Of a stretch of DNA of 54,938 nucleotides, positions 1 through 29,777 are shown one piece after another (within the stretch, counting starts at the first letter, position 1; each line of letters begins with the position of its first letter). This stretch comes from Candidatus Omnitrophota bacterium. GTDB lineage: Bacteria; Omnitrophota; Gorgyraeia; JAFGGP01. The translations under genes were made by a program, and so were the position numbers. A model generated the notes under the pieces. It was not told the DNA's origin, searched no databases, and worked only from the letters and a program-made list of their open reading frames with translations. The stretch is taken from assembly GCA_016930485.1 (NCBI GenBank), contig JAFGGP010000017.1:1-54938 (forward strand). The letters are read 5' to 3'.

Positions 1-3000
1 CTCTGACGGCATCTGTCCTGTATTACCCCAGTCATCGGTGACTGATTCACCGGCATCCTTGAGCTGGTAATCGTAGCTCACCGTGGTAGTCTGTGAATAG
101 TTTCCGCCAAAGATATCCACGCCTGAGGAGGTCGTGGTCTGCGAGGTCATCACGGCCTGGCCATGCATAATCGTATATATCTGCTCACCTGTCGTATAGG
201 AAGTATCTCCGAAGATATTGGTGGATGAGCCCTCGATGACACCATGAGCAGCAACCATCCCCCATCCTGACCTTATGGCCCCGCCTGCCGTTGCCCCCGG
301 CACTCTCTGATCCCCAACCTCTATAGGCCCATATTCATATGTTACCGTGGTCGTCTGATTCCATGCGCCGCCGAAGATATCAATGCCTGATGATACAGTT
401 GTCTGACTGACAAGGATTGCCTGACCATGAACAATCATGTACTCTTGAGTGCCTGAATTGAACGTGGTATCACCAAAGATATTGGTTGAAAAACCCTCGA
501 AAGAGCCTGTAGCACTCATTAATCCCCAGTAAAGCCTGGTAGTGGGCAGGCCTGTTTCAGAATCCAGTATCGGCTCTTCGTGATATATAGGATTCTCACT
601 GTTATCGCTCCGTTTAAGCTGACCATTAGGATCGATAAACCCGTATTGATAGACAACGGTCGACACCTGTTCCCAATAACCTCCAAACATATCATACCCC
701 GAAGAGGTGGTAACGGTCTCAACGGTATCTATCGCCCCGTAGATAGTAGGTAATACCCTGCCTTCGGCCTCAAAGGTTGTATAGGTTGTTTTACTCTCCG
801 CGGTGGTAGTATTGACGTCGCCAAAGATATTTTGAGATTCGGTCGTAGTGAGAGTTCTTGTGGCAAAGGCGCGTCCCTTAACAATGGTATATTCCGTCAC
901 TGTGGTCGTCGTTACAGTAGCACCGAATATATCCACCGTCGTGGTAATAAGGGGCTGAAGTTCTTCAACATTCACGAGGGCCGCTATTGATTTCTTCCCG
1001 TCTTCTGTTTCGTATTCACCATAGGTGTGCCTGACAATCGACGGCTGGGAGCTCGCCCATGTTTTGCCAAATATGTCCTCTCCCACGCTCTCGGTTATAA
1101 TATCGAGATAATCCATTACCCCCAAAATCGTCCCGGCCCTGTCCAGAATCTCGCCGTATAGGGCTTCGTCAAACTGGGCAATCTCATTCCACTCGGGCCT
1201 CTCTACCTCTTTATAGTGATACTGGCTGGTTGAAACGCTGGTATTCAGGGAACCGAAGACATCCATGGCAACGGTTGTGCTCACAACCACATCGCTGAAC
1301 GGTTTTCCGTTAATAAGTATATAGGTGGTTGAGGTGGTGGTGGTAACCGGATCACCGAAGATATTGACGCTTTCGGTGATCATTGGTTCGATTTCTTCAA
1401 CCGCGATCAATCCGGCAATTGTGGTCTTGCCTTCTTCCGTTGTCAGTTCCCCGAACTGGTGCCTTACCACCGACGGCTGCAGCGTCTCCCACGTCCTGCC
1501 GAATATATCAAGGCCTCTGTTTGAGCTGGTAATTTCGATATAATCCTGAACACCGAAGAGGGTCCTACCGTCATACTCAACCGTCTTGTAGTGGTATTCG
1601 CTGACCGTCTGCGAGTACGTATCAGAGCCAAAAATATCAACCTGGACAGAATCGGAAGTAACCACATCGGCAAGCGCTCTGCCTTTCACTATGGTGTAGG
1701 TGGTGGAGGTAGTGGTTGTTGTTAAGTTCCCAAATAAGTCTTGGGACAGCGTCACACCGCCAACAGCAGTTACCACCTCTTCTGTCCAGGGACTAATCAA
1801 ACTGACAGAAAGGTCCTCGGCCTTCTTAAGGAGACCCTGCCAGACCTTTCCTTCTTCGTTCACATAGAGCGGATCCGGAACCGTCTCAGGATCTTCGGTC
1901 CCGTTTGTATATTCGTAACGCATTGCGGTACGGGTCATAAAAGCGGTCCCGTACATATCAATCCCCAGGGTCGTAGTCACGGTCTCCAGGGGTTTTGACT
2001 GATTGTTGATGGCTAGGTAGTAGGTCTGGGTGGTGACGGCGCTCAGATTGCCGAAGATATCGCTGCTTATCGTAATGGTACCACCCACCCTCTCAAGAAA
2101 CTGCTCGATAAGGAGGGGATCGACATCCAGGAGCTCGCTCAGATCATCCGGAAGCACTATATCAGTTCCCGGAATCTGGATATTGGCGTCAAGATCCCTG
2201 GCACTCATGAGCAGACCGTGCCATAGCTCCCCGCTAGGCATCAGATAGATCGGATTGAGGTGCGCCAGCGGATCAAGACCGACCTCGCGCATGAGGTATG
2301 CCAGCTGCTCTGACAGGATCATCTCGTGCCACTCTTTTTCCTCAGGGAGATTATCCAGAGAGATCCCCAACGCCCCCTTCAAAAACTCTATGCGATCCGC
2401 GAAGGTCATGTGAGGCCAGTTTTCAGGAAGCGAGATCACCGTTGTACCGCCGGTAGTCTGGATTTCGACCGACCCGCCTGACTTGAGGAGCTCGAGCACA
2501 GCCGCCTTCTGGGCGTCGGTCATGCTGTCCCAGAGGATAGCCTCACCGTCGATGATCACATATTGCCCGCTGAGCACCTGGTCGATATAGTAATCGGTCA
2601 GGTCGCTTATCATCAGATAAACGTCTGAAAAGATAGCCGGGTCCTCCGCCCCGGTTGTATACCCGTATTCAAGAATGTTTCTGCTGAAATAGACACTTCC
2701 GAAGATGTCCGCGCCAACCGTATCAGTCGCCACAATCCCAGGTTTTGCCTGCCCGTCAACAATGGCATACGTGGTACTGGTTCTTACTATGGAGGAGCTG
2801 CCGAAGACATCGCTCCGCAGGGTCAGGCCACCGATCCCGGTAATGGTGTTGCCGGTCTCAGGGTCGTCAAGGCTTACTTCCATATCGTAGGCATTCTTTA
2901 AGAGGCCGATATAGACAGAAAGGTCTTCGGGGTTGACGTATCTCGAATCAGGCAGGTCAAAGGGGTCCTCGGTACCATCGGTATACTCATAGCCGACACG

Positions 3001-3770
3001 GGTAATCGTGATTGATGTCGACCCGTCCAGGCTGGTTCCGGTCGTCGTCGTAGTCGCCTCAATAACCTTTGCCTGGCCGTTGACAATGGCGTAGACATTG
3101 TCGGTGTGGGAATGCTGTTCATTGCCGAAGAGATCCGTGGTGATTGAATCGCTGTAGCCGTCGGCCCCGGTCAGATGGCCGACGCTGTCATACTCATAGT
3201 GCGTCACCGAGGTAGTGTCGGTCACTGATCCGTCGAGGCTGAACATAGTACTGGTCCCGCTTGCCTGGGACATGTGTGCCTCTGCCACCTGCGCCTCGTT
3301 GATAATAATCACGTAGTCGAAATCCGTCTCACCCTCGTGTTTATTTCCGAAGATATCGGAACCCGTGTATTCGTCGCCACCGTCCGAGCCTATCAGAAGA
3401 AGCGTATTGGGATCATAATCAAACGTCTGCCAGCCTATCTTGTGCTGTGTAGAGCCATCCATATTCTGAATGTCAGTCACGCTGTTAACCCGTACCACCT
3501 TTGCCTGACCATACATAATCTCGTATATATCGGTGGTAACCGTGGTGTAAGTATTACCAAATATGTCGAGGCCGTTCGTAACGCTTCCGCCCTCGGCCCC
3601 GATCAAGATGCCGTTTTCATCATAGAAGTACTCCACCCAGCTCACCGTATGGCTGGTAGAGCCGTCGGCATTCCAGCGGTAGGTATCCGTATCATACCGG
3701 TTAGTGTTACCGTCGGAATTGAGGTACTTGGTATAGTAGGTCTCGTTTGTGTTGCCAAAGTCGTCTTCGC
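1..3770 (-). repeat. Array of about 20 degenerate D/N-[IVLM]-F-G beta-repeats in the giant protein
   Basis: Recurrent units such as DIFGNTYTTVTTDIYEIMYGQAKVV, DIFGNKHEGETDFDYVIIINEAQV and DLFGNEQHSHTDNVYAIVNGQAKV. A few more copies at about 9790-10260. Confidence 0.85.
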
Positions 3771-6700
3771 CGCTTTCATAGCCTGTTTCCTCATCCGGCG
3801 TATCGGGCGGGGCAGGTGGTTCAGGCGGAGCCGGAGGTTCGGGAATGGGGGGCTCCTCGCTAACCGGTTCGATGCCAATATTTCTGACCCGTATCTCACC
3901 TTCCCAGTTGCCGTCCCAGCTGTCATTCGAAGCCACCTTGATGCCCAGTTGCAGTATCTGGTTCTCATCAAACTCGGCACCCTCGGGATAGGTGTCACCC
4001 TCTGAAAAGTCGAATGTCACTTTGACCCACGTCCCTGTCTCAAGATTGACCCACTCGCTGTAGCGTGATACCCATACGGTCCCGTCAGAGGTCTTGGCAA
4101 AAAGCTGGACCCCTGAAGGCGCTTCTTCAGAGCCGAATCCCGGATCCTCGACCATAATCTCTATAGTGAACTGCTTGTCGGTGTAATCGGTCGGGGCAAT
4201 AGTGAGATAGACCTCACCTTTCCGATAACCATCTACCGGACCATAGCTGCCGTACAGTCTCAGCTCATCATCGCCTGTTTCTATAACGCTCAGGGCCTTG
4301 CTGTCACCCTCGGTATAGCCCTGCCAGTCGCTTGAGGTCGATATATCCGGCTCCTCGGCCTCTTCTGCTTCCTGGGCCAGAGGCTGTTCCGGCTCTTCGG
4401 CCGGAGGTTCAACTGCAGGCGGTTCCTCTGCCGGCGGTTCAACTGCAGGCGGTTCCTCGACCGGAGGCTCTTCACCTCCCATAGTCTCTTCCGGTTCCTC
4501 AGCACTTAAACGGGCAAACAGATCTTCACTGTGACCATCGTAGGGCTCAAGATGGAGAACGAGATTGTCGCCTTCATAGTAAAGATACTCAACTTCGGCG
4601 TTTTCTGCTTCAATGGCTGCATAGATGTTATCAAGATCCGTTGCCTCAACTGTTCCTACATATACCCGGTTACCTCGGTGATCTTCTACAAAGACCCCGC
4701 CAACAGCCGCCCCGAATATCGGAGTTGTAATCGCCCCGGTAACAGGCATACCACCAACCGTATCATCCGGCACATACGCCCTGAAGGCCCTCTCGAGCGC
4801 CGCATCATACTCTGGCGTTCCTTTCTGAGATAGAATGGTGGATAGACCTGCCGTAGTTACAGCGTCGAACCACGCCTCAAGTCTCTCAGGAGCAACAGTT
4901 GTCACCTCCGGAATCACTATCAGGGATGAAGTTAGTTCAGGAAATTCTGCCTTGAGTGAACCCAGCACCGCCTCGGTAAGCCTGGCAAATTCTTCTGCGT
5001 CTATGCGTTCAAGCGGCTCTAGCACAAACTCAGGAAGGGGTTTTGAAGCATCCTGCGGGGTAAGCAAATAGAGGCCAAGAGGGGCCTCGCCCAGAGGCGT
5101 TTCTTTTGTAACTTCATCAGGAGTCAAGCCTTCCGGTGTGAATGACTCGCCCGTTGTTATGTCCATTTCCGGGGCAGCAATCATAAACGTCACCAGCTGA
5201 TACTCGGGAAGTTCCTTCGTAAGATATTGAGAAATCTCATGATAGGGAATTATTGTAAAATCGGCCTCCCTGTCCTCCTTTGGGATATCGCGAATCAGGA
5301 TCAACCGCGGGATAAACTGGACCGGGGTGGTTTCTGGATACGACGGCAGCTTAAGCAAGAGCACTGCACCTGCAGCATCCTGCAACAGAGAACTCTCCTG
5401 CAGCTTTTTAACCGTATCAATAACACTTATCTTAAATGATGGAACTAACTTAGCAACTAAATCCTCAACCGTATCATGAGGGCGCAGTGGTTCGCTCAGG
5501 GCAATCGGGAAAAGAGAGGGTGATATGGAAATAAGAACTGGGATAAACTCGTCAGGTGTAATTTTGGGTACCGGAGGCGCACGAAGGGTAATCACAATCC
5601 CCTGCCACTGGCCCAGGAAATCGCTCTGTGACACCTCATAGAGATTGCCGTCGATTTCCCTAACCAGCACAGTACCGTCCTCTTTAATCCCTTCAATCAC
5701 CACCCAGTGGTCTCCGCCCACATGGGCAATCACCGGCATATCCGCCTGTCTCAGTGCTTCAAAGCTGGTGCGGACCGTAACCATATCAAGGCCGAACTGC
5801 TCGGCAACTTCCCTAATCGCGATGTCCGAGGTATAGACAATATCAAATTGTGCCGGCCTGAGGATGCCGTTAATGATGTCGCTCACGATGGTCTGTGCCG
5901 CTATCTGTGTGGTAGAGACCTTGATACCGAACATCTCGAGTAACCGCTGCAGGGCCTTGGCGCCGCAGCTTATCACAAACTGACCCATCTTTGAGAGCCA
6001 GTCAACCACATTCTTGATGACTGCCAGATCAAGGATGCCTTCCTTAAACTGGTGCGCCTTCTCGGCGGCAATGTCAAGGAGTGTCTTTTCAACCTCATGG
6101 ACTACCTCGGCCGCCTGGTCAAGAAGCCCCTCGGCAGTCTTGTGAAAACTGAGAAGTAGCGTCACATTGCCTTCTGAATCCACGCGGGACTCAAGCACCA
6201 CCCGCGATTCAAGACCGTCCCTTATAACCGAGGCAGTGCCATCGCCATAGACGGTGATGTCAAGAGGGTTGCCGTCTCTGTCTGTGGTCCTGATATGCAG
6301 GTTGCCGTCCGAATCCCTCCACGTCCCATAGGTATCTGCCGAGAGCCCATCAGCACCCAGGGCAGGAAGGAATAATTTCATCTCGCCGTCCTCCTCTTTT
6401 AATATATAGGAAGACGACCCGTCTGCCGACAAACCGATGAGAATCGGGGTATGATAGCCGGCGCTGAGAAACGTCCCGGTAGCAACACCACCTACCTGAG
6501 GATGAGAATCGCTGCCTTCGCGGTTTTCTCCTTCCGGACCGCCGGGGAACGACGTGCCAATGTTCCCCTTATCATAATAAAACTGGGCATTCATGCGAGC
6601 AGTGCCTTTTGCAGTTGTAGCTTTGATAGTGGCGCCTACCATGGTATCCGGCAAGATATAAAGGGAGCCGTGAATAATGCCACCACCCGGGTCATCAATC

Positions 6701-9700
6701 GGGTCCTCTGTCGGGTCATCAGGGGGTACATCGTCCCATGGGTCATCATCCTGCGGGATATTAACCGTCGTGGGATTAAACTGATGTACTGAAAACCCTG
6801 AGAAGGTGTGCGATGCAGAGCCGCTATAGGCGGAGCCGCCCCCGCCCAAACCATACTTTCTGTATACCTCGACCGAGTACCATTTCTCCCCTGGTTCATC
6901 CTCATCGTCGTCAGCGCCGCCAGCTTCGTCATCGTCGTCATCGGCATCATCGTCGTCATCGTCGTCATCCGGAGGGTTATTGCCACCCGGGTCATCCGGG
7001 TCAAATTCCGGGGCACCGGCCGGTGCTACCAGGTCAATAAGTTTGGCAGTCTGAGTAAAGTCGTCCAGCAGTAGTGCGGCTGCCAAGGCCTCATTCGGGG
7101 TAAGGCCGCTGTCGCTGTTCTCTGCGATATAGGCCGCCTCCATCGCCCGCACCCACGCCTTTACCGCAGCGGCCGATATGGCCGATGAGGTGTCTCCTGA
7201 CGGGTTCATATTGACATGAAAGGCAAAATCGGCCACCTGGACCTTGGTAATTTTTTCACCATACTGGTATTGTGTCAGCTCTTCCTCCCAGGAAAGATCT
7301 TCCCAGAACTGTTGAATCGTCACCGATACACCGGTTGTCTTGTTTGTGCCTGTCACCTCTGTGAAGTCTCCGACTGAGCCATTTACGTTGCCATTGTAAT
7401 ACCCGACAAGTTGATACCAAGTGTCAGGTATATTGGGGTCAAGACCCTGGGGATCGATGTAATCGATATAGGAAGCTTGATTGCTGGGGTCAACAATAAT
7501 ATCAATGGTGGTCCCGGGATTGGCCGGGTCGTCAACCGTTACGGCATACGTGTAATTCATCGGGTTAACATTAGAGCCTTTCCCGGCATTGCTCCCATCC
7601 AAGGCGACATAGTCCCATTCACCAGCCTGGTGCGTAACCAGTCTGGTAACCGGGTTGCCATATTGATCACGGACAACCTCTCTGTTAACGTCGTACTGCC
7701 CCCTCTCCACCTTGACCGTAATGACCGCGTCCTTGGTCGGGTCAGGCTCGCCTGCCTCGTTCTCCCCGTAGGTAATAGTCATGGTAAAAGTGTACGTTAC
7801 CGTGTGTACCTGATTCCTATAAATGCGGAAGTCGCTGGACGGGTAAGCTGTGTGGCCTGTATCAGGGTTTTCATAGCGGGTGCCGGTGCCCCAGCTCTGT
7901 CCGGCAAGGTCGACCTCCACGGTTTTTGTCCACTCATAGCCGTTTTCAACCGGCTTGACTGCCAAGGCCGTACCCATCTGACCCTCATCAAACTCACCGA
8001 GTGGCGGATTCCACTCCAGGAGATTGATAGGAGGTGAGGCCACGGTCGGGTTGGTGCCATTTGCAAGCTTTGCAGAGGTATCCAGCACGCCGAAGGCCAG
8101 AAGCTGTATAAAACCGAACCCGTACGGGTCGGTGGTCCAGGCAGAATATGTCGTATTGGCTTTGTTAACGGTGTTGTCCATAAAAGTCGAACTAGGTCCC
8201 CAATGGTCTCCAAGATAATTGGGCGCAGACAGAGTCGAGACATTGCCCCACTGCTTGCCAAGGGAGTTTGAGGCAATCCACAGCTGACGGTCACTGGGGT
8301 CAATGTCATCTCCTACTACCCTCTTCACCGAGGCATACATCATGCCCAGGCCGCACGCCTTGACACACATGGCATCGATATTATATGCCAGGCTCCCGCC
8401 GCCCGTAGTACCGGTATAGGCACCAGTATTGCCGTCGCCTACTGCTGAATAGGCCTCGATCCTTGCCACAAACGCTGATTGGCCCTGCTGATTGCTCCAG
8501 GAATAATAATCCGCATACTCAATACCCGGTATGGCCTCACCACCTCCCCCCACATTATCCCTGGCGACTATCACGCACCTGCCCTGACCGCCAGTTTTTG
8601 ACATATACACATCAAGCCCATCAGCAAGTGTGAACGAGCTGCCGTCAGGGCCTGACTCATCAACCCAGACGTAGCGGCCTGTCGGGGTGGTGTCGCCGTT
8701 CCGGTAAAACTCTATAGTGTAATCCCCAAACTGGAAGTACCCGTACCGCGCGCCGTTTCCATAGTCATACCAGGTTCTGCCATTAGTCGATTGACCTATC
8801 CTATTGCCGTCGCCATCATACAAATCCCAGGCGATAATGCGGCCATTTGCCGGATTGATGCGTGGGTCCCAATGGCTGTTAGGGGGTGCCCAGGGGGGGA
8901 GGGGTGGCTCAGGTGGCGGCGTGTAATCATCATCATCATCATCGGCACCGCGTATCTGTTTCATGACCTCATCGGGGATTTCCCTGGCACCAGCGGGTTT
9001 TTCGCTGCTCAACACCACACCCTGCCACTTCTCCAGAAATTCCTCTTTTGTATAGATAATCACCTCGCCGTTTGTCTCAAGGACCTTGACCAGGTTGTCG
9101 GTCGCGCCAAGGACAATGACATAGTGGGTCGGGCTGAAATGCGCGATGACCGGCTGAGTAAGATTGACCAGTTCGTCATAGGTAAGTTCGAGGCCGTACA
9201 GTTCCACGCCATAGAGTTTTCCTACCTCCCTGAGCGATGACGCCGAAAGAATCAGCCTGCCGCTGGTAAGCGGGGTAATGACCCCGGTAAAGATATCGGT
9301 AAGGATGGTCTTGATCGCGATATCCGCGTAGTCGGTACCGGCAACGCCCAGTTGCATCAAGAGCCGCTGGATCGCCACAAAGGCGCTTGACCCGAAGTGC
9401 GCGTCCTGGTGCTCGAGCCAGTCGATGATAGCCCGCACACCCAGGGCAGTAAGCGAGACCGCGATATCCATAGTCAGGCCGAGTGCGGCAAGCATGGCCC
9501 GCTGCTCCTCAGGAGAAAGGGTGATAAAGCGCTCGAGCACCTCCCTCACCCGGTCAATAATGGTCTCGCGTGCCTCCTGCATCCGGGCATATTCATCGGA
9601 TGCCAGAAGTTCGCGGCGGACATCTTCGAGTGTCTTATCGCCCGAGAGGATTGCCTCCCGATACTGATCAAATTCCTGGGTCGTCGGGTCCCTCCCGAGG

Positions 9701-12075: not shown

Positions 12076-12239
12076 TGTCCCTCCACCACCACTTTATCTC
12101 ACAATATAATCCATTTATTAATTGCCTATTATCTGGTAGTATTGATCTAAAGAGTTCTTTTTTATGCATTTTTGTTAAACTTTTTCATACTTAAAATGAA
12201 GGTTTTTAAAAGATTTTATTTAGTGCCTAAAAAAATAAC

Positions 12240-12280
12240 AAAAAAACCGGACTGCTTTACTCTTCTTTCGGCAGCCCGGC
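12240..12280 (-). terminator. Intrinsic terminator (riboswitch expression platform)
   Basis: Minus strand GCCGGGCUGC...GCAGUCCGGU followed by a U-run; the 5' arm is the 3' end of the aptamer. Confidence 0.85.
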
Positions 12281-12349: not shown

Positions 12350-12372
12350 CTGTCTTTTCAAAGATCACCTTA

Positions 12373-21774: not shown

Positions 21775-22989
21775 TTAAATATCACTTTCTTTGATCTCGG
21801 TAATCTCAACCTCGCGTCCGTCTTTGAGTGTCTCGTGGGTCTCCACAACAACAAGCTCGCCTTCCTCTAACCCTGACTCAATCTGCGCGTAATCGGTGGT
21901 TACGTAACCGATCTGTATCTGCCGCTGTTTTGCCACCTTCTCGTCCTCCACAACAAAAACGCTGTATCCTTCCTCGGTCTTTTCGAGTGCCATGCTCGGC
22001 ATAACCAGTGCGTCTTCCATCTCGAAGATACGCACCATACACCTGGCAAACATGCCGGGAAGCAGTTGATTATCGGGATTTTCTATTTTTACCTTGACCG
22101 TCAGCGTCCTGGTTTTTCCTTCCAGGGCAGGGGTAATATTATCAACAAGGCCGGTAAATTTCTTTCCTGGATAGGCATCAACCTCAACCTCAACCTCCTG
22201 ATCAAAGGCGATCTTCTCGATATCCTTCTCGATCACCCCCAGCACGGCGTAGACCTCAAATATCTCGGTCAACTCAACGGTATCATTCTGAGGTGTGACA
22301 AACTCCCCGGGCTCAATTTTTTTAGAGGTGATAACACCAGCGGATGGGGCATGCAGTTTTGTCTTGGTAAGGTCGGATTCGGCGCTCTCCAGTTCTACCT
22401 GGGTAGCAGCAAGCTGTTTTTCGGCAACCTGGGCCTCTATCTCTACCTCCTTCACCTTGGCCTCGACGATCGCCCCCATTTCGTACAGTTGTCTGTGTAT
22501 CGCCAGCTTCTGCAGGGCCCCCTGATGAGATACCTCTGCGGATGCAACCTTGGAAGCAGCGTATTTGACTTTCAGCCGAGCATCCTTATCATCCAGCTCT
22601 CCGACAAGATCCCCTTTACTTACCAAATCGCCCTCTCGCACATAGAGCTGCGTCAAGACGCCGGAGATCTCGAACTTCAGCGGAATGGTAGATATGCCTT
22701 CGATAGTGCCCATAACAGGCAGATTATCCTCGAAATAGGTCCTTGCCACCCGGAATACCTTAACCGGTGCCGGCTTCTCTTCCTGCTGGGCCTCTTCTTC
22801 CTCTACCATGGTCTCTTGTTTTGTCCCGGTCCGTAACAGCGCGCTGATCTTGGCGCCGCCCGGCAGCTGTTCCAAAGGAATCTTATCTAAAATAGCCTCT
22901 CTCCCTACATAGATGATTACCATCGCGATAAAAAGTAAAAGTGAAATACTGAATATTCTCTTTCCAAATCTTGACCAACGGATCTTCAT
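21775..22989 (-). CDS. RND periplasmic adaptor (membrane fusion protein)
   Basis: N-terminal TM; lipoyl-like halves (VREGDLVSKGD, LHAPSAGVI); LLPGMFAR; start reassigned to MKIRWS. Confidence 0.93.
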   Translation of the reverse strand: MKIRWSRFGKRIFSISLLLFIAMVIIYVGREAILDKIPLEQLPGGAKISALLRTGTKQETMVEEEEAQQEEKPAPVKVFRVARTYFEDNLPVMGTIEGISTIPLKFEISGVLTQLYVREGDLVSKGDLVGELDDKDARLKVKYAASKVASAEVSHQGALQKLAIHRQLYEMGAIVEAKVKEVEIEAQVAEKQLAATQVELESAESDLTKTKLHAPSAGVITSKKIEPGEFVTPQNDTVELTEIFEVYAVLGVIEKDIEKIAFDQEVEVEVDAYPGKKFTGLVDNITPALEGKTRTLTVKVKIENPDNQLLPGMFARCMVRIFEMEDALVMPSMALEKTEEGYSVFVVEDEKVAKQRQIQIGYVTTDYAQIESGLEEGELVVVETHETLKDGREVEITEIKESDI

Positions 22990-23105
22990 GGTGTCTCTCC
23001 AGAAAAAGTCTCGTTGTAGATAACAATTTCCCGCCCTCGAAACCGCACCGATGGACTCGCGCAGGGGGGGCAATGGAGTCGTTGAGCCCTGTCAACGCCC
23101 CTTAT

Positions 23106-25226
23106 CTATTTTTCGCCTCTGTCAAAGTACCCGGTAATACCTACCACCTTGTTCAGTTCCGAAATCGCCGTATGGTGATCTGCCAACGCCTGATAATAAC
23201 TTGCGTTATTGTCCGCAAGCTCCAGCTCTGCCTTGAGGAGTTCGGTAATGGCGACTTCGTTTAGCTCCGTCATTGCCTGGTTTACCTTGACCTGTTCTTT
23301 GCTTAGCTCCAGCTTATTTTTTTCGTCCTTTAACGTCAGGAGCGATTTCTTGTATTTAAAGTAACTGTCCTTTACCTCGAAGTTAATGGTGAGTTCGGTC
23401 TTGTTGAGCTGCTCGAGCGCCTTATCATATTCAATAACAGCCGCTTTTTTATCGCTGTCGATCTTCATTGCCTCCGGGTCATACAGAGACATCTCGAGCG
23501 TATTCGTCTGGAATACGGTGCTGTCGGTCTGCCCTGCCTGAGGCACCCTGTCCTGGGCAAGCATCGAGTCTTTAAATGTGTGCTTTGACCATGGATACTT
23601 TACCTCAAGCCCCACAAACCACTCTTCGGTAAACTCCTTGGGTTCGGTTTCATAGGCCTCTGCACCCCAGCCGGCAAGACCGCTGAGACTGACCTGAGGC
23701 CTGCCGCGGGACTTGGCTATCCGTATCCCGTATGCGTTAAACTTAAGTAACAGTTCATTAATAGCAAGATCCGGCCTGTTGTTCCGGGCAAGCTCAAGGC
23801 ACTCATCTACCGTTTTACCGATCTCTATCTCATCCTCTACGGGCGTTGGATCGATAGCGATAAGTGCTTCATCACCCTTAATATTCAAATTATTCTGCAG
23901 GGTAAGCTGGGCCAGGGTAAGCTCGTTCTTGTTCTGTTCGCGCTTAAACTCAAGCTGATTCACCATTGACTGGGTTGTAAGCAATTCGAGCCTCCTGCTC
24001 AGGCCTGCCTCATACCGCTTCTCCACAATCTCCGAGATTCGGGCAGATTCATCAACCAACTCCTCATAAAGGTCCTCTTTTTTCACGCTGCCCGCCAGTG
24101 TATAGAAGGCCTTCTCCACCTCAAAGGTAAGGTCTTGTTTAATCTTTTCATACTTGGCCGCCGCCACTTCTACATTGACAACAGACTGCCGGTAGGAGTT
24201 CCTGATTTCGCCGCCCCTGTATAGAGGCTGTTGAAATTCGAACATATAACGCGTACCAAGAGAATCGACCATCCCCCCGCTCACCTCGCTTACCGATTCC
24301 TGCCACTTTAGGGTAGCCGTGGGGTACTTTGCGCGCTTTGCCTGATCTACCTTTAGCTGGGCCAATTCAACCTCTTTAAGGGCGATGCGGCATGGAGCAT
24401 GGTTTTCAAGACCTATGGTAATACACTCTTCGAGGGTAAGCGTCCGGCCGGCAAGATCCTCGGTTGTCTGAGGAATCTGGGCCCTCTTCACTGCGGATGG
24501 CCTGTTCGCATGAGAAGGCATGTATGGAGCCTTGGGAGGCTCAGGCGGTCTGGTGTGTTGTCTATAGGCTTCCGGGGGGCGTTTTGGGCTGACCATTCCC
24601 TGGGGTGCCTGAGGTAAACGATATGACGGGAGCTCACTCGCCATAGATTTCCTGGGGTAGGCCTCTGGGGTTTGTTTTTGCTGGGGAAGGGGACCGCTTT
24701 GACAGGTGTTTCCTGATGATGTACTTCTATAACTATCTGAAATTGAACAGGTTAAATTTTGATACGGTTTATGATACGGTTCATTCTTTGCTAGTTTCTT
24801 GGTTAATTGCGAAGATGCGGTAACATCGACTACTATCTGGTAAGTTGAGGAATTGACTGTGTACTGGGGATTGCCGTCAAAGATTACTGTTAACTGGTCT
24901 ATCTTGCTGCCGGCAGACGGAATGCCATTGGCGTAGAACGAAGGAATAACCTCTTTGACTCCTGCGATGTTAACCGGGATAGCACGTCTGTCAAGGTCAG
25001 TATAGATATTATCCCCGATAAGATCTATTACCAGGCGTTGAGGGTTTTCAAGTTTGAAATCAATAAACTCTAACGGGTGGCTCGATGGAATGATTAATTG
25101 AACCCCACTGTCTACCCTCTTGACGTGAACTCCGTATATCCTGACCACCCCTTCTCCATAAGCAGGATAAAAATAGGTAGTTACAAGAAAAAAACAGGTT
25201 GTTAAAATGCTATAAAGTCTTCTCAT
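23106..25226 (-). CDS. TolC-family outer membrane protein with N-terminal AMIN domain and Pro-rich linker
   Basis: Signal peptide; FKLENPQRLVIDL (AMIN signature); from LTLEECITIGLENH onward, two OEP-like helical repeats (QQPLYRGG, RRLELL, RPDL). Confidence 0.88.
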   Translation of the reverse strand: MRRLYSILTTCFFLVTTYFYPAYGEGVVRIYGVHVKRVDSGVQLIIPSSHPLEFIDFKLENPQRLVIDLIGDNIYTDLDRRAIPVNIAGVKEVIPSFYANGIPSAGSKIDQLTVIFDGNPQYTVNSSTYQIVVDVTASSQLTKKLAKNEPYHKPYQNLTCSISDSYRSTSSGNTCQSGPLPQQKQTPEAYPRKSMASELPSYRLPQAPQGMVSPKRPPEAYRQHTRPPEPPKAPYMPSHANRPSAVKRAQIPQTTEDLAGRTLTLEECITIGLENHAPCRIALKEVELAQLKVDQAKRAKYPTATLKWQESVSEVSGGMVDSLGTRYMFEFQQPLYRGGEIRNSYRQSVVNVEVAAAKYEKIKQDLTFEVEKAFYTLAGSVKKEDLYEELVDESARISEIVEKRYEAGLSRRLELLTTQSMVNQLEFKREQNKNELTLAQLTLQNNLNIKGDEALIAIDPTPVEDEIEIGKTVDECLELARNNRPDLAINELLLKFNAYGIRIAKSRGRPQVSLSGLAGWGAEAYETEPKEFTEEWFVGLEVKYPWSKHTFKDSMLAQDRVPQAGQTDSTVFQTNTLEMSLYDPEAMKIDSDKKAAVIEYDKALEQLNKTELTINFEVKDSYFKYKKSLLTLKDEKNKLELSKEQVKVNQAMTELNEVAITELLKAELELADNNASYYQALADHHTAISELNKVVGITGYFDRGEK
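24760..24781. promoter_or_regulatory. Tandem TGATACGGTT direct repeat inside the tolC-like gene
   Basis: TGATACGGTT-TA-TGATACGGTT, located in the inter-domain linker. Confidence 0.5.
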
Positions 25227-25774: not shown

Positions 25775-25852
25775 TGGTAGCGCTAACGGGATTCGAACCC
25801 GTGTCTTCGGAATGAGAGTCCGATATCCTAGGCCGGGCTAGACGATAGCGCC
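25775..25852 (-). tRNA. tRNA-Glu(CTC)
   Basis: GGCGCTA...TCGGA-CTCTCAT-TCCGA...GGTTCGAATCC...TAGCGCTACCA. Confidence 0.97.
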
Positions 25853-26037: not shown

Positions 26038-27255
26038 ATGGGCTTACAAATAGGTATTGGTTCAGGAAAAGGGCAGTCGCCTTTTAATATCGGCAGGCAA
26101 GCAGCGCGTGAGGCAATTAGTGCTATGCGGCGTCCCTTGCCGCATCAGGGAATCGCATTTACCTTTGCTTCCTCCCGATACGCCCCTGAGGATCTTCTGC
26201 GAGGGATTAAAACTGTATTAGGGGCGGTACCGGTTATCGGCGCAACTACCGCGGGAGAATTGAGCCCAAAAGGGGTTGATTCTGATACATGCATCGTCAT
26301 GTGCCTGTTTAGCGATAACTTAAATATTAGCATTGGATTGGGAGAAGAATGCGGGCGTAACAGCAGGGCAGCAGGACATCATTGTGCCCATGCAGCCAAT
26401 AAGGCGCTTCTTGAGCAAATTAAGAAATACTCGGTCTCTGGCAGAGAAAGACTCTGTTTTATCGCCTTATTCGACGGGCTGCGCGGGAATGGTTCAAATA
26501 TTATACGGGGTATTCAGGAGGCCCTCGGAACAAGCTTTCCTATCGTTGGTGGTGCAGCGGCCGATGATTTTTACTTTAATGAGACAAAACAGTTCTACGA
26601 CAGTGCGGTATATACCGATTCAGTAGCAGGGGTCCTTTTTGGCGGGGAGCTGTCAATCGGTATTGGGGCCCGGCACGGGTGGCGTCCACTTGGCAAGACA
26701 ATGACCGTAAGTCAGTCTATGGACAATATTGTGATGGAAATCGACGGCAGACCAGCCGCCAAAATTTACGAGCATTACTTTGAAAACGAAGTCCGTCTTA
26801 TCGGGAAAGAGCCTCTTACGAAGCTTGCTATTTTATATCCGGTTGGCATGTCAATACCGGGGGAGGAGGAATTTCTGATAAGGCACCCGATGAATATTAA
26901 ACAAAATGGGGCAATGGTCTTTGCAGGAGAGGTGCCAGAAGGAAGCGCTGTCAGACTGATGATGGGTTCCCGTGAATCAGCCCTTGAATCAGCAAAATTA
27001 GCGGCCTTAGAAGCAAAAAATAACCTGGCAGGAGCAGAGCCGCGGTTTCTTATCGTCTTTGATTCGGCTTCCCGACGAAGACTTTTGGGCAGAGAAGCAC
27101 CCAAGGAAATAGAGGCTATTCGTTCTGTATTTAACGACATCCCTTTTGTTGGTTTCTGCACCTATGGCGAGTTTGCGCCGTTAAAATCAGAGCTCCATGC
27201 GGGCACTTCCTATTTCCATAATGAGAGCATAGTCATCCTGGCAGTCGGATCGTAA
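26038..27255 (+). CDS. FIST_N/FIST_C sensor protein (NosP-like)
   Basis: GATTAGEL, VGGAAADD, HGWRPLG, EIDGRPA, GFCTYGEF, FHNES motifs. Confidence 0.93.
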   Translation: MGLQIGIGSGKGQSPFNIGRQAAREAISAMRRPLPHQGIAFTFASSRYAPEDLLRGIKTVLGAVPVIGATTAGELSPKGVDSDTCIVMCLFSDNLNISIGLGEECGRNSRAAGHHCAHAANKALLEQIKKYSVSGRERLCFIALFDGLRGNGSNIIRGIQEALGTSFPIVGGAAADDFYFNETKQFYDSAVYTDSVAGVLFGGELSIGIGARHGWRPLGKTMTVSQSMDNIVMEIDGRPAAKIYEHYFENEVRLIGKEPLTKLAILYPVGMSIPGEEEFLIRHPMNIKQNGAMVFAGEVPEGSAVRLMMGSRESALESAKLAALEAKNNLAGAEPRFLIVFDSASRRRLLGREAPKEIEAIRSVFNDIPFVGFCTYGEFAPLKSELHAGTSYFHNESIVILAVGS

Positions 27256-27268: not shown

Positions 27269-28798
27269 ATGGGCAATATATCAAAGTTGTTGCTGGTATT
27301 GGGGCTCTCGGTTCTGGCCGGACTCTTTTTTACTAACAGCGCCTATGCAAAAATGATATATACTGTCCTGTTATTTATTATTATTGTAGCTCTGGCGGTA
27401 ATCGCCATAAAAGAGCAGGGGCGACGCCAAAACATCACACATGCCCTTAAAGAAGCAGAAAAAGCCTATGAGAAATTGGACGAACAGGCAAAAATGATCC
27501 TTCAAACTGACTTAAAATTGAATATGGCTCAGGAAGAGCTTGATAAACGCATAGAGGGGTTATACGGACTGCATGAATTGGGCAAAATTATCGGTAAGGT
27601 CTTTAATTTAAAGGAATTGCTAGAGCTGGTAGATGAGGAGCTGGTTTTTAGCCTTGGGTTTGACAAAAGCATCGTATTACTTTTGGATCCGGAACAGACA
27701 AAGATACGCTTCAGTTCAGCAGCGGGATACACCTCTGAAGAAATCCGCCATATAAAAGAAACGCTCTCTTCGGCACAAGCCATCGAGATGCTCAAAAATG
27801 AGCAACAGGTACAGGCGCTGTCACAGGATAAACCGTTCCTGAATGGATTGCTTAAGCTGAGGTCGGCCGTTATTGTACCGCTATCCATCAAAGAGCGGTG
27901 TTCTGGTCTTATCCTTATGGGCAGCGAGAAAAAAGGGGTTATCCAAAAAGAGGATAACGAATTGATTCAAATACTGGCTCAGCAGCTGTCGGCATCCATA
28001 GAAAACATCTACCTCTACGAAGAACTCTGGAATTCGCAAAGGGAACTCGAATTAAAGGTTCAGGAGCGCACAAAAGAGCTGCAACAGGCCTATGAAGATC
28101 TTAAAAAACTCGATGAGAAGAAAAAAGAATTTGTCTCTGCGGTTTCCCATGAGCTGCGAACACCCCTTACCTCAATCAAAGGGTACGCCAGTATTTTAAC
28201 AAGTGGCAAACTCGGTGATGTCACCGAAGAGCAAAAAGAGCGGCTGCAAAAAATTAACATACACTCCAATAAGCTGGTAAGCCTCGTCAACAATCTCCTT
28301 GACATATCGAGGATCGAATCAGGCAAGGTGGAGATGAATATTAAACCGGTTTTAGTAAAAACGCTTCTTGATGAAATTGCCGATATGATTGCCCCCCAGG
28401 TAAAAGAAAAAATGATAGAATTAAAGGTAGAAATCCCGTCGTCGATCGAAGAGGTCGGCGCGGACAAAGAACAGCTGTCTCGTGTATTTATTAATCTCTT
28501 GTCGAATGCGGTCAAATTCACGCCCGATAAAGGACATATTAAGATAACTGCCTCAAAAAAAGAGGGTTATCTACAGTTTGATATCGCCGATTCGGGAATT
28601 GGCATCTCTCGACAAGATCAAGAAAAGCTCTTTACTGAATTTTTCAGAACCCAGGATGCGATCGACAAGGGTATTAAGGGGACAGGGCTGGGCCTGTCCC
28701 TGGTAAAACGCATCGTGGAGGCACACAAAGGAACTATATGGGTAACCAGTGAAGTAGGCAAGGGCGCTGTATTTCATTTTACCTTACCCGCATACTAG
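27269..28798 (+). CDS. Membrane sensor histidine kinase (GAF-HisKA-HATPase)
   Basis: VSHELRTPLTSI H-box, NLLSNAVKFT, DSGIGI, GTGLGL. Confidence 0.95.
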   Translation: MGNISKLLLVLGLSVLAGLFFTNSAYAKMIYTVLLFIIIVALAVIAIKEQGRRQNITHALKEAEKAYEKLDEQAKMILQTDLKLNMAQEELDKRIEGLYGLHELGKIIGKVFNLKELLELVDEELVFSLGFDKSIVLLLDPEQTKIRFSSAAGYTSEEIRHIKETLSSAQAIEMLKNEQQVQALSQDKPFLNGLLKLRSAVIVPLSIKERCSGLILMGSEKKGVIQKEDNELIQILAQQLSASIENIYLYEELWNSQRELELKVQERTKELQQAYEDLKKLDEKKKEFVSAVSHELRTPLTSIKGYASILTSGKLGDVTEEQKERLQKINIHSNKLVSLVNNLLDISRIESGKVEMNIKPVLVKTLLDEIADMIAPQVKEKMIELKVEIPSSIEEVGADKEQLSRVFINLLSNAVKFTPDKGHIKITASKKEGYLQFDIADSGIGISRQDQEKLFTEFFRTQDAIDKGIKGTGLGLSLVKRIVEAHKGTIWVTSEVGKGAVFHFTLPAY

Positions 28799-28814
28799 GG
28801 CCAGGAGGAGTTAG

Positions 28815-29777
28815 ATGCCAAAAAAGAAAATTCTCGCAGCCGATGATGACCCGGATATTCTTGATATTATTAAACTTGCGCTTGAAGATGAATATAACGT
28901 CGTTATAGCTCATAATGGTGAAGAGGCGATTGAAGAGGTCTATAAGCAATCACCCGATTTGGTATTGCTTGATTACATCATGCCTAAGCTCAACGGGCTC
29001 GAGGTCTGCAGGCGCCTTAAGAGTGATATTTTGTTACGCCATATGCCAGTAGTCATGTTAACAGGGAAGGGGGAACTCAGGGATAAGGTAACCGGATTGG
29101 GGGCAGGGGCTGACGATTATATTGTCAAACCCTTTGAGCCTGAAGAGTTACTGGCGCGCATCAATACTATTATACGGCGTAGCGAGGCAGATCTCGACGC
29201 CAACCCCTTAAGCAAACTGCCGGGGAATGTCACTATAACCAAAGAACTCGAAAAACGCATTGGGGAAGGAGGCAGATTTGCTGTCTGTTATCTCGACCTG
29301 GATAATTTCAAGGCCTATAACGATACCTACGGTTTTAAAAAGGGGGATGAGATCATTCGTTACGCCGCACGCACCCTCCTTGACGTCATGCAAAACTGCG
29401 GAAATCGCGATGATTTTCTAGGCCATATCGGCGGCGATGATTTTGTCTATATTACCAATCCGGATCAGGCGGAGGGGCTGTGTCAGAAGATTATCAGTTC
29501 TTTTGACCTTAATATCGGTGAATTTTACAATGAAGAAGACCTGAAAAGGGGTTTTATTGTCTCAAAGGACAGAAAGGGGGAAACGCAGGAATTCCCTCTC
29601 ATCTCGATATCGATAGGTATTGTCTCAAATGAGGCGTTTGAACTGAAGCATCCGGCTGAAATCGGCGCTATCGGGGCTGAGTTAAAGGCATTTGCAAAGA
29701 CAATAATGGGCAGCTCTTATGTGAAAGAGCGTAGAAGCAAAAAAACAGACTCAGAAGAAACGCCAGAAATAGCTTAA
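28815..29777 (+). CDS. Response regulator REC-GGDEF diguanylate cyclase (GGDDF variant)
   Basis: REC domain (DDD, LLDYIMP, KPF); ANPLSKLPGN, DLDNFKAYNDTYG..GD, GHIGGDDF. Confidence 0.93.
   Translation: MPKKKILAADDDPDILDIIKLALEDEYNVVIAHNGEEAIEEVYKQSPDLVLLDYIMPKLNGLEVCRRLKSDILLRHMPVVMLTGKGELRDKVTGLGAGADDYIVKPFEPEELLARINTIIRRSEADLDANPLSKLPGNVTITKELEKRIGEGGRFAVCYLDLDNFKAYNDTYGFKKGDEIIRYAARTLLDVMQNCGNRDDFLGHIGGDDFVYITNPDQAEGLCQKIISSFDLNIGEFYNEEDLKRGFIVSKDRKGETQEFPLISISIGIVSNEAFELKHPAEIGAIGAELKAFAKTIMGSSYVKERRSKKTDSEETPEIA

What the first reader, a model, noticed from the sequence alone, without database searches (positions are those of the whole stretch)
1..29777. Candidate integrated system: sensor, c-di-GMP, riboswitch, self-processing giant protein and a dedicated AMIN-TolC/dual-RND exporter
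Seen in one contiguous 30 kb: a FIST-HK-REC/GGDEF operon, a divergent export operon, a c-di-GMP-I riboswitch with terminator, and a >4000-aa secreted protein. Established: GGDEF domains make c-di-GMP, GEMM-I aptamers bind it, FIST/NosP proteins feed kinases that control biofilm formation, and RND pumps can capture substrates from the periplasm. Inference: a local circuit switches on a giant adhesin/effector. The Sec-exported, C39-processed protein or its fragments may use an RND-TolC machine instead of the ABC-type T1SS usually paired with C39 domains. No ABC transporter is present in the window. I know of no described system with this architecture.
Basis: partly seen in the sequence, partly recalled or inferred. 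Interest (0 to 1): 0.92.

Follow-up and report, generated by a model that had tools for sequence, protein, structure and literature searches.

The report
Riboswitch-controlled giant protein beside efflux pump
In this Omnitrophota genome a c-di-GMP-sensing RNA switch controls a giant secreted protein, but the neighbouring efflux pump and sensor operon look like separately conserved modules, not one dedicated system.

Summary
The "integrated system" is mostly juxtaposition.

- **Riboswitch and giant gene (solid):** a c-di-GMP-I riboswitch with its own promoter and an aptamer-overlapping terminator sits upstream of a Sec-signal-bearing ORF of at least 4025 aa. The ORF has two C39 peptidase domains.
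- **The link recurs:** the genome has 9 such riboswitches. At least 6 of 29 C39-bearing giant ORFs in 60 class-level relatives have one directly upstream.
- **Already published:** C39 giants and the self-cleavage idea are in print for Omnitrophota. Riboswitch control was not in the two papers I searched.
- **Pump:** TolC-MFP-RND-RND is an MdtABC-like operon found in all 20 relatives' loci fetched around their best TolC matches. It has no large gene beside it in 21 of 28 loci. None of the 29 C39 giants shares a contig with it.
- **Residual signal:** 7 of 28 pump loci have an ORF over 1200 aa just downstream, against about 1.3% of genes. Six are secreted-type giants from three families.
- **Sensor operon:** FIST, GAF-kinase and REC-GGDDF form a three-gene unit in 12 of 12 loci but lie beside the pump in 0 of 20.
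- **Lineage feature:** the DeoR-like wHTH tail on the RND permease is real; all named matches are Omnitrophota.

The parts
1..12075 (-). Giant ORF, at least 4025 aa, 3' end cut by the contig end. Acidic, 4 Cys in total, with one strongly hydrophobic N-terminal segment.
   Evidence: no continuation found in the assembly
11977..12075 (-). N-terminal Sec-type signal region (basic residues, hydrophobic core, AWA|AG). Its motif is shared with other giants of this genome and of relatives.
   Evidence: read from the sequences; no signal-peptide predictor was run
8956..9420 (-). C39-like domain 1. Ser replaces the catalytic Cys; His is kept.
5551..6018 (-). C39 peptidase domain 2 with Cys and His intact.
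   Evidence: model pLDDT 94.2; fold matches LahT, PCAT1 and ComA peptidase domains
1..3765 (-). C-terminal array of D-x-F-G ... Y-x-I-x-x-G-Q-A-K-type repeats, residues about 2771-4025. Three more copies lie at residues 663-750.
   Evidence: shared with the G059 and G022 homologues
12239..12287 (-). Intrinsic terminator: GC-rich 9-bp core extended by A/U pairs, 15-nt loop, U7. Its 5' arm is the 3' strand of the aptamer.
   Evidence: compared with the aptamer alignment
12266..12345 (-). c-di-GMP-I (GEMM-I) riboswitch aptamer.
12373..12401 (-). Sigma-70-like promoter TTGACA-17-CATACT (10 of 12) about 30 nt upstream of the aptamer.
   Evidence: consensus match only
12739..15855 (-). RND permease 2, 1038 aa. 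Its best NCBIfam equivalog is MdtC, below the cut-off.
15879..16421 (-). Secreted 180-aa protein with D-x-D-G-type repeats. Weak match to the Lsa25.6 family.
   Evidence: not seen at this position in the relatives' loci
16425..17312 (-). Secreted 295-aa protein: Pro-rich, then an acidic repeat tail. No family match.
17416..21702 (-). RND permease 1, 1428 aa. Best equivalog is MdtB/MuxB, below the cut-off. It carries an acidic linker of about 300 aa and a C-terminal DeoR-like wHTH (about 17419-17630).
21775..23073 (-). RND-type membrane-fusion (adaptor) protein.
   Evidence: TIGR01730, 237 bits, above its cut-off
23106..25226 (-). TolC-family outer-membrane factor with an N-terminal AMIN domain and a Pro-rich linker.
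25775..25852 (-). tRNA-Glu(CTC), between the pump and sensor operons.
26038..27255 (+). FIST_N+FIST_C sensor protein, a distant relative of NosP.
27269..28798 (+). GAF-HisKA-HATPase histidine kinase.
28815..29777 (+). Response regulator: REC plus a divergent GGDEF domain whose motif reads GGDDF.

Best explanation
The 30 kb holds three separately conserved Omnitrophota modules that happen to lie side by side.

(1) Riboswitch and giant gene. A transcription unit with its own promoter carries a c-di-GMP-I riboswitch that acts as an ON switch. When c-di-GMP is bound, the aptamer holds the strand that would otherwise form the 5' arm of the terminator. Transcription then reads through into the giant gene. 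The giant is Sec-exported, acidic, nearly Cys-free and repeat-rich. It has one Cys-His C39 peptidase domain and one Ser-His variant, and it belongs to the published class of C39-bearing Omnitrophota giants. It is one target of a genome-wide c-di-GMP regulon that also covers pseudopilin operons and other giants.

(2) Pump. TolC-MFP-RND-RND is a conserved MdtABC/MuxABC-like efflux pump. Its lineage-specific additions are an AMIN, TPR or TonB_C head on the TolC protein and a DeoR-like wHTH tail on the first RND. It is not a dedicated exporter of the giant.

(3) Sensor operon. FIST, GAF-kinase and REC-GGDDF form a conserved three-gene signalling operon that probably feeds the cellular c-di-GMP pool.

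Shown here: the domains, the RNA family, the competing folds and the synteny counts. Inferred: ligand, ON polarity, Sec export, proteolysis and cyclase activity.
For: Riboswitch:
- Both c-di-GMP-I models score above their cut-offs.
- A promoter-like site lies about 30 nt upstream.
- The minimum-free-energy fold forms a terminator from the aptamer's 3' strand plus U7.

Regulon:
- The genome has 9 RF01051 matches above cut-off. They precede giants (C31, C6), pseudopilin-like operons (C35, C23, tandem in C45) and small secreted proteins.
- 53 of 61 genomes of the class (G000 included) have matches.
- In 8 of 40 sampled riboswitch-downstream stretches, the longest ORF is at least 1000 aa or runs at least 800 aa into a contig end.
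- 6 of 29 C39-bearing frames of at least 1000 aa in 60 relatives have a listed riboswitch directly upstream. This is a lower bound, because one search listed 150 of 256 matches.

C39 domains:
- Pfam E 7.2e-26.
- Model pLDDT 94.2, matching the LahT, PCAT1 and ComA peptidase domains with target-normalised TM 0.74-0.76.
- Across 151 aligned domains, the nucleophile position is Cys in 122 and Ser in 29, and His is kept in 149.

Pump:
- TolC, MFP and RND1 are present in 20 of 20 relatives' loci. RND2 is present in 17 of 20; 2 are cut by contig ends and 1 lacks it.
- The same order appears wherever those genes lie within the 12 further loci, several of which are cut by contig ends.
- Profile order is MdtA-, MdtB-, then MdtC-like.
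- 21 of 28 loci with a visible downstream neighbour show no large ORF. They show a solute-binding protein, a ROK regulator, a glucoamylase or CBM proteins instead.
- 0 of 29 C39 giant frames lie on the TolC contig.

Sensor operon:
- FIST is followed by GAF-kinase in 11 of 11 loci.
- All three genes are present in 12 of 12 extended loci, with GGDDF kept in 11.
- 0 of 20 pump loci contain the operon.
- A GGDDF enzyme has been shown to be active (PMC8835794, passages read).
Against: - 7 of 28 relatives' pump loci carry an ORF over 1200 aa directly downstream of RND2. About 1.3% of genes in this genome are that long. Six of the seven are signal-bearing giants from three mutually unrelated families. 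Chance alone does not explain this.
- The closest homologues of the window's giant, in G059 and G022, are both pump-adjacent. G059 and G031 also have a riboswitch between pump and giant.
- In G059 and G014 the FIST operon lies on the pump contig, 31 kb and 15 kb away.
- No C39-ABC transporter was found in the genome, which is 89% complete. The export route across the outer membrane is therefore unknown.
- ON polarity rests on a thermodynamic fold with z-score only -1.97.
- The window's own wHTH reaches only E 0.018 in Pfam. The family-level signal carries that call.
Confidence: 0.7

Rival explanations
1. The AMIN-TolC/MFP/dual-RND machine is the dedicated outer-membrane exporter of the Sec-exported, C39-processed giant or its fragments. 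It would replace the ABC-type T1SS usually paired with C39 domains.
For: - A large ORF lies directly downstream of RND2 in 7 of 28 relatives' loci and in the window, involving three unrelated giant families.
- No C39-ABC transporter was found in the genome.
- No ABC gene lies on the contig.
Against: - The pump operon was present in all 20 relatives' loci fetched around their best TolC matches. In 21 of 28 loci it has no large neighbour.
- 0 of 29 Pfam-detected C39 giant frames share a contig with the pump.
- The giant has its own promoter and riboswitch after a 394-nt spacer.
- The other giants of this genome (C6, C9, C42, C44) have no RND, MFP or TolC genes beside them.
- By profile, the pump is closest to the small-molecule pumps MdtABC/MuxABC.
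- The genome holds 6 secretins and a TolC-MFP-ABC (670-aa frame) cluster on C35.
- In relatives the pump borders carbohydrate-uptake genes, which is where giants are reported to sit. That gives an indirect reason for the adjacency.
Confidence: 0.08
2. Local circuit. The adjacent FIST/GAF-kinase/REC-GGDDF operon is the specific input that switches this particular riboswitch and giant gene on.
For: - The two are adjacent in the window.
- The operon is a conserved unit whose GGDDF motif is kept in 11 of 12 loci, which suggests function.
- A GGDDF cyclase can be active.
- In G059 and G014 the operon lies 31 and 15 kb from the pump.
- In G059 a c-di-GMP-I riboswitch precedes a kinase/REC/FIST gene string.
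Against: - 0 of 20 pump loci contain the operon.
- Where both were located, they are on different contigs in G022, G036, G011, G052, G028 and G039.
- c-di-GMP is diffusible (established knowledge).
- The genome has 9 riboswitches, 5 canonical GGDEF domains (156-170 bits, against 57 for this one) and 12 PilZ matches.
- tRNA-Glu and a small ORF separate the operons.
Confidence: 0.15
3. The wHTH tail of RND1 is a membrane-tethered regulator that couples pump state to transcription of neighbouring genes, which could include the giant gene.
For: - The tail is conserved in 16 of 28 orthologues with 12 invariant residues.
- HTH_DeoR matches 17 of 17 tails, best E 2.5e-11.
- 33 further RND clusters carry it.
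Against: - The tail does not track the giant neighbour. It is present in 3 of 7 loci with a large downstream ORF and in 13 of 21 without.
- No DNA target is known, and DNA binding was not tested.
Confidence: 0.05

Closest known systems
C39-bearing giant proteins of Omnitrophota (West-Roberts et al. 2023, bioRxiv 10.1101/2023.11.21.568195; the 24-protein PF03412 architecture cluster in bioRxiv 10.64898/2026.06.07.730766). I read passages and one section of the first paper and one passage of the second.
   Same: - Omnitrophota host.
- Size in the thousands of residues.
- N-terminal signal.
- Embedded C39 domains, for which self-cleavage has been proposed.
- A link to c-di-GMP: the paper reports PilZ genes downstream and GGDEF domains inside giants.
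   Different: - Here a c-di-GMP-I riboswitch sits upstream. The words riboswitch, c-di-GMP, RND, TolC and efflux gave 0 occurrences in both main texts, although section 11 of the first paper spells out cyclic di-GMP.
- The upstream neighbour is an RND pump, not the reported type II secretion-like locus.
- No SecA domain or multiple TM segments appear in the 4025 aa available.
c-di-GMP riboswitch control of adhesin and pilus genes in Clostridioides difficile and Vibrio cholerae (recalled from memory, not checked here).
   Same: A c-di-GMP aptamer in the 5' leader of surface-protein genes, acting through transcription termination.
   Different: The controlled gene is a giant of over 4000 aa in an ultrasmall Omnitrophota genome. 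The density is 9 aptamers in 1.9 Mb.
MdtABC-TolC / MuxABC-OpmB heteromeric RND efflux pumps.
   Same: One adaptor plus two tandem RND permeases with an outer-membrane factor. Best NCBIfam equivalogs are MdtA/MuxA, MdtB/MuxB and MdtC, in gene order.
   Different: - All scores are far below the equivalog cut-offs.
- The TolC protein carries an N-terminal AMIN domain.
- RND1 carries a linker plus a wHTH tail.
- Two secreted ORFs are inserted between the RND genes.
NosP/NahK-type FIST-kinase signalling and PleD-type REC-GGDEF cyclases.
   Same: A FIST sensor next to a histidine kinase, and a REC-GGDEF output regulator.
   Different: - The NosP equivalog scores 107 bits against a cut-off of 450.
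- The kinase has a GAF domain and no REC domain.
- The cyclase motif is GGDDF.
- The I-site R-x-x-D is not visible by eye (positions recalled from PleD).
Lap system of Pseudomonas: giant adhesin LapA, T1SS LapBCE, c-di-GMP receptor LapD and protease LapG (recalled, not checked here).
   Same: It works in a similar way: c-di-GMP decides whether a giant surface protein is displayed, and a cysteine protease and a TolC-family protein are involved.
   Different: - Control here is transcriptional, through an RNA.
- The protease domain is inside the giant.
- No ABC component lies at the locus.
- The giant has an N-terminal Sec-type signal.

Membership tests
c-di-GMP-I riboswitch (Rfam RF01051) | Covariance-model score at or above the gathering cut-off | tested here: met
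   64.8 bits against a cut-off of 35
c-di-GMP-I riboswitch (Rfam RF01051) | Lies in a 5' leader on the strand of the downstream gene, with an expression platform | tested here: met
   190 nt upstream of the giant ORF; a terminator overlaps the aptamer
c-di-GMP-I riboswitch (Rfam RF01051) | Binds c-di-GMP | not testable with these tools
   Needs in-line probing or ITC
c-di-GMP-I-GGC variant (Rfam RF03167) | Score above cut-off, plus the variant nucleotides that distinguish it from RF01051 | tested here: inconclusive
   62.8 bits against a cut-off of 59. Where the RF03167 consensus reads CGCGAAG, the window reads CGCAAAG (alignment). That this is the variant-defining position is recalled, not checked.
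Peptidase C39 (double-glycine peptidase domain) | Profile match and papain-like C39 fold | tested here: met
   Pfam E 7.2e-26; model pLDDT 94.2; Foldseek matches to 6mpz, 7n87 and 3k8u with target-normalised TM 0.68-0.76
Peptidase C39 (double-glycine peptidase domain) | Catalytic Cys and His | tested here: met
   Domain 2 has Cys and His. Domain 1 has Ser and His, a variant seen in 29 of 151 aligned domains. His aligns with the His of the ComA and LahT chains.
Peptidase C39 (double-glycine peptidase domain) | N-terminal domain of an ABC exporter that cleaves a double-glycine leader | tested here: not met
   The domains lie inside a giant secreted protein, and the genome has no other C39 match. 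Substrate sites were not tested.
Type I secretion system | ABC transporter together with MFP and TolC at the locus | tested here: not met
   No ABC_tran or ABC_membrane match on the contig
MdtABC/MuxABC-type RND pump | Adaptor plus two tandem RND permeases, conserved as an operon | tested here: met
MdtABC/MuxABC-type RND pump | NCBIfam equivalog cut-offs for MdtA, MdtB and MdtC | tested here: not met
   121 of 391, 382 of 1584 and 403 of 1774 bits
Diguanylate cyclase (GGDEF) | GGDEF domain above the Pfam cut-off | tested here: met
   56.6 bits against a cut-off of 23.8, covering profile positions 6-105 of 161 only
Diguanylate cyclase (GGDEF) | Canonical GG[DE]EF active-site motif | tested here: not met
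   The motif is GGDDF. It is conserved in 11 of 12 orthologues. One GGDDF enzyme has been reported active.
NosP (FIST) sensor | FIST_N and FIST_C domains next to a histidine kinase | tested here: met
   kinase adjacent in 11 of 11 loci
NosP (FIST) sensor | NCBIfam NosP equivalog cut-off | tested here: not met
   107.4 bits against a cut-off of 450
Omnitrophota giant-gene loci as described by West-Roberts et al. | Type II secretion-like locus upstream; PilZ and solute-binding genes downstream | tested here: inconclusive
   The upstream neighbour is the RND pump, and no secretin lies on the contig. The downstream side is lost at the contig end.

The most novel reading that the evidence does not exclude
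The slot directly downstream of the conserved TolC-MFP-RND-RND operon is a preferred site for giant secreted-protein genes in Omnitrophota. It holds a large ORF in the window and in 7 of 28 relatives' loci, six of them secreted-type giants from three unrelated families, because the pump is functionally coupled to giant-protein display. The pump has a peptidoglycan-anchoring TolC head and a DNA-binding RND tail. It might export C39-released fragments across the outer membrane. Alternatively, it might signal envelope state through the wHTH tail.
Probability: 0.08. Interest if true: 0.85.

Novelty: new member of a known kind. Interest (0 to 1): 0.4.

Why it matters
- **Regulation of giant genes.** Omnitrophota giant proteins are proposed tools of a predatory or host-dependent lifestyle, and how they are regulated is unknown. 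A c-di-GMP riboswitch in front of this giant recurs in front of at least 6 other C39 giants and of pseudopilin operons. That gives a concrete and testable rule: high c-di-GMP turns on giants and pili together. It fits the PilZ and GGDEF links already reported.
- **What it removes.** The analysis takes away an attractive but unsupported idea, RND-mediated protein export.
- **What stays unexplained.** Giant genes lie beside the pump operon more often than the baseline predicts.
- **An undescribed fusion.** An RND permease is fused to a DeoR-like wHTH domain. All matches that carry a source name are Omnitrophota. I found no description of it, and current annotation calls these proteins only 'efflux RND transporter permease'.

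Tried and rejected
- **Paralogues and continuation:** the whole giant had no other match among this genome's ORFs at E below 1e-5. I found no continuation of the cut gene, either by DNA overlap of the contig end or with the last 700 aa.
- **Giant against PDB sequences:** the whole protein gave nothing. The single C39 pieces gave only spurious repeat matches. A 4-sequence profile reached the C39 chains.
- **The search for homologous proteins on the C39 region at 'near' lengths:** no hit among 254 candidates. The exhaustive representative search then found 361.
- **ESM Atlas on the repeat array:** top scores 0.83-0.89, below the useful range, all in unnamed clusters.
- **Metagenome scan with the first 500 aa of the giant:** 81 pattern matches, none confirmed.
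- **Expression:** no RNA holder listed. The two metatranscriptome runs of the source study hold next to none of the sampled words.
- **Rfam on 14 pump loci of relatives:** no riboswitch found.
- **Literature:** 'AMIN domain'+'TolC' returned 4 papers, none about an AMIN-TolC fusion. 'RND'+'efflux'+'winged helix'+'fused'+'permease' returned 6 papers, none about such a fusion. Both judgements rest on titles and abstracts only. 'Omnitroph'+'c-di-GMP'+'riboswitch' returned only the ComFB papers.
- **Supplements:** supplementary files of the giant-gene preprints are closed. They may list gene neighbours or RNA elements that I could not see.
- **C9 ABC exporter rejected:** I considered the ABC exporter upstream of the C9 giant as a T1SS. 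It sits in a string of radical-SAM-like ORFs, judged by eye from CxxxCxxC N-termini with no family search.
- **G036 ORF reclassified:** I first counted the G036 pump-adjacent large ORF as a secreted giant. It is a TPR plus glycosyltransferase-2 protein.

Full report
**Setting.** The window is the whole contig C31 of a 57-contig, 1.92-Mb metagenome-assembled genome that is 89% complete. The held collection has no member of the same family. The 60 'relatives' are of the same class, each from another genus. The closest RND2 orthologues in named records, at 47-51% identity, are mostly labelled Candidatus Omnitrophica/Omnitrophota or Candidatus Saelkia. The named RND-tail matches carry the same labels. 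I therefore treat the organism as Omnitrophota.

**Observation check.**
- The minus-strand ORF 1..12075 gives at least 4025 aa and runs off the contig.
- Pfam finds Peptidase_C39 twice in it (E 7.2e-26).
- Rfam finds a c-di-GMP-I-class aptamer at 12266-12345(-). RF03167 scores 62.8 bits and RF01051 scores 64.8 bits.
- Upstream on the same strand lie RND2, two small secreted ORFs, a 1428-aa RND, an adaptor and an AMIN+OEP outer-membrane factor.
- Divergent from these lie FIST, GAF-kinase and REC-GGDEF.
- No ABC ATPase or ABC membrane domain lies on the contig.
- The rest of the window (30-55 kb) holds trehalose, MscS, glycosyltransferase and housekeeping genes.

**Riboswitch.**
- A TTGACA-17-CATACT site ends about 30 nt before the aptamer. 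The giant gene therefore has its own promoter, 394 nt after the RND2 stop.
- The minimum-free-energy fold of 12215-12350(-) pairs the aptamer's 3' strand (…AAAGCCGGGCUGC) with GCAGUCCGG followed by U7. This is a terminator that cannot coexist with the aptamer drawn.
- I infer a transcriptional ON switch. The inference is thermodynamic only (z-score -1.97).
- At the one position where the RF03167 consensus reads G (CGCGAAG), the window reads A. I therefore call it a c-di-GMP-I aptamer, not the GGC variant. The meaning of that position is recalled, not tested.

**A genome-wide regulon, not a local device.**
- The genome holds 9 RF01051 matches above cut-off.
- By inspection of downstream ORFs, they precede the C31 and C6 giants, pseudopilin-like operons on C35 and C23, a tandem pair on C45, and small secreted proteins. 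A sub-threshold match precedes the C9 giant.
- There are 7 GGDEF matches, 5 of them full-length at 156-170 bits, and 12 PilZ matches.
- Among 61 genomes of the class (G000 included), 53 have c-di-GMP-I matches.
- I fetched the DNA downstream of 40 of the best-scoring matches in relatives. In 8 of the 40, the longest ORF starting within 1.7 kb is at least 1000 aa or runs at least 800 aa into a contig end. This is a crude measure.
- Pfam C39 hits in the 60 relatives fall in 29 distinct open frames of at least 1000 aa. Six of them have a listed riboswitch directly upstream on the same strand: G021:C5, G044:C4, G052:C7, G014:C38, G005:C17 and G038:C131. This is a lower bound, since one search listed 150 of 256 matches.

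**The giant protein.**
- It begins with a Sec-type signal region, has one strongly hydrophobic segment in 4025 aa, is acidic and has 4 Cys in total.
- It contains YD-like stretches and about 25 D-x-F-G repeats.
- Domain 2 (residues about 2020-2175) keeps Cys and His. Domain 1 has Ser and His.
- In 151 aligned domains, drawn from the best 150 of 361 representative hits that are mostly 1000-7800 aa long, the nucleophile column is Cys in 122 and Ser in 29. His is kept in 149.
- An AlphaFold model of domain 2 (pLDDT 94.2) matches the double-glycine peptidase domains of LahT, PCAT1 and ComA.
- C39 domains near the N-terminus of Omnitrophota giants, and the idea that they cut the giant into pieces, are already in print (passages). 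A 24-protein PF03412 giant cluster is also reported (passage).
- Self-processing remains an inference both here and there.

**The pump.**
- I fetched 20-kb stretches around the 20 best TolC orthologues. TolC, MFP and RND1 are present in 20 of 20. RND2 is present in 17, with 2 cut by contig ends and 1 (G019) lacking it.
- Twelve further independent loci, with no match of at least 95% identity to the first set, show the same order wherever those genes lie within the locus; several are cut by contig ends.
- The best NCBIfam equivalogs are MdtA/MuxA, MdtB/MuxB and MdtC in gene order, all below their cut-offs.
- The N-terminal head of the TolC protein varies: AMIN in 7, TPR_2 in 8 and TonB_C in 2 of 25.
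- The RND1 tail is a DeoR-like wHTH. It is present in 16 of 28 orthologues, has 12 invariant residues, and HTH_DeoR matches 17 of 17 tails.
- 33 further RND clusters carry the tail, and every one that has a source name is Omnitrophica/ota.

**Is the pump tied to giants?**
- The gene after RND2 is visible in 28 loci: 16 and 12. Seven have an ORF over 1200 aa there, all in the first set: G030, G036, G020, G059, G048, G031 and G022.
- In this genome about 1.3% of genes are that long (21 of about 1584).
- G036's ORF is a TPR plus glycosyltransferase-2 protein.
- The other six carry a signal-like N-terminus and fall into three families. Family A is G059 and G022, homologous to the window's giant (E 4e-35 and 5e-46). 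Family B is G030 and G048, homologous to this genome's C9 and C44 giants, which are not pump-adjacent. Family C is G020 and G031.
- A riboswitch lies between pump and giant in G059 and G031 only.
- Against a functional tie: 21 of 28 loci have no large neighbour. There, RND2 is followed by a solute-binding protein, a ROK regulator, a glucoamylase-CBM9 protein or CBM proteins.
- The G048 giant is itself followed by a sugar ABC permease, GH130, an MFS sugar transporter and GH113.
- The C42 giant of this genome follows ROK-like and lipoprotein ORFs, judged by eye.
- West-Roberts et al. report giants next to carbohydrate-import genes (section read). A shared neighbourhood can therefore explain the adjacency.
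- None of the 29 Pfam-detected C39 giant frames lies on the TolC contig of its genome. Fragmented assemblies weaken this count.
- Alternative routes exist outside the window: 6 secretin matches, 3 ABC exporters and a TolC-MFP-ABC cluster on C35.

**The sensor operon.**
- FIST is followed by GAF-kinase in 11 of 11 orthologous loci.
- A REC-GGDEF-type regulator follows in 12 of 12 extended loci, with GGDDF in 11 and GGDEF in 1. Three loci have an extra REC protein in between.
- GGDDF is thus conserved, not decayed. One GGDDF enzyme, GSU1937, was shown to be active (passages).
- None of the 20 pump loci contains this operon. It lies on the pump contig only in G059 (31 kb away) and G014 (15 kb away).
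- In the window, tRNA-Glu and a small ORF lie between the two operons.

**Verdict.**
- The riboswitch-giant unit is real and recurrent. It is a new member of known kinds: c-di-GMP riboswitches and C39 Omnitrophota giants. The main texts of the two giant-gene papers hold none of the words riboswitch, RND, TolC or efflux. Supplements were not seen.
- The 'dedicated RND exporter' and the 'local circuit' are not supported.
- Two things remain unexplained and are worth a phylum-wide test: the excess of giant genes in the slot after the pump, and the RND-wHTH fusion.

Noticed in passing
window 11977-12075(-); G000 C9:83547, C44:29588 and C44:86572; loci L069, L071, L072, L168, L175, L181: Giants of unrelated families share an N-terminal signal region with a recurring pattern: basic residues, then I/V-rich residues, then F-L-W-x-N/Q-V-x-W-A-A. 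Examples are ...LIQTFLWSNVAWAAG, ...LFIWNQVAFAAP and ...FLFQQVSWAAD. This may be a lineage-specific sorting signal for giant proteins.
   Followed up: partly
window 17419-17630(-) and 33 further protein clusters: An RND permease is fused through a variable acidic linker to a conserved DeoR-like wHTH domain. Every match that carries a source name is Omnitrophica/ota, and they are annotated only as efflux permeases. Two keyword searches found no paper describing it.
   Followed up: partly
L134 (G059:C9:60000-73000), riboswitch at about 2817-2913: In G059 a c-di-GMP-I riboswitch precedes a 944-aa kinase-like ORF. Three REC-only genes and the FIST/GAF-kinase/REC-GGDDF operon follow on the same strand. 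This could be a c-di-GMP feedback loop on its own candidate synthase operon.
   Followed up: no
G000 C45:15051-15150 and 15314-15413 (-): Two c-di-GMP-I aptamers lie in tandem upstream of a 359-aa membrane protein.
   Followed up: no
Relatives' riboswitch list (e.g. G040:C3:12-88, G040:C19:32-108, G035:C20:17-99): Many c-di-GMP-I matches lie within a few kb of contig ends. This fits riboswitch-controlled repetitive giant genes breaking short-read assemblies.
   Followed up: no
G000 C35:34175-36900 (-): The genome's second TolC-family gene and second MFP sit next to a 670-aa ABC ATPase frame. This is a MacAB-TolC-like tripartite exporter outside the window.
   Followed up: no
G000 C47:10135-10470 (-): A small PilZ gene (125-aa frame) lies about 2.4 kb downstream of the end of the C47 giant fragment. 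This matches the published pattern of PilZ genes after giant genes.
   Followed up: no
window 15879-17312 (-): Two secreted ORFs are inserted between the two RND genes. One has D-x-D-G calcium-binding-like repeats and a weak Lsa25.6 match. The other is Pro-rich with an acidic repeat tail. This insertion appears in this genome only; in L051 and L064 a different ORF sits between MFP and RND1.
   Followed up: partly
L076:20667-22451 and L078:20918-21931 (-): In two further Omnitrophota-like genomes, a protein carrying the family-B giant N-terminal domain (594 aa in L076; a 337-aa 5'-open fragment in L078; E 1e-43 and 1e-29) lies about 8 kb downstream of the pump on the opposite strand.
   Followed up: no
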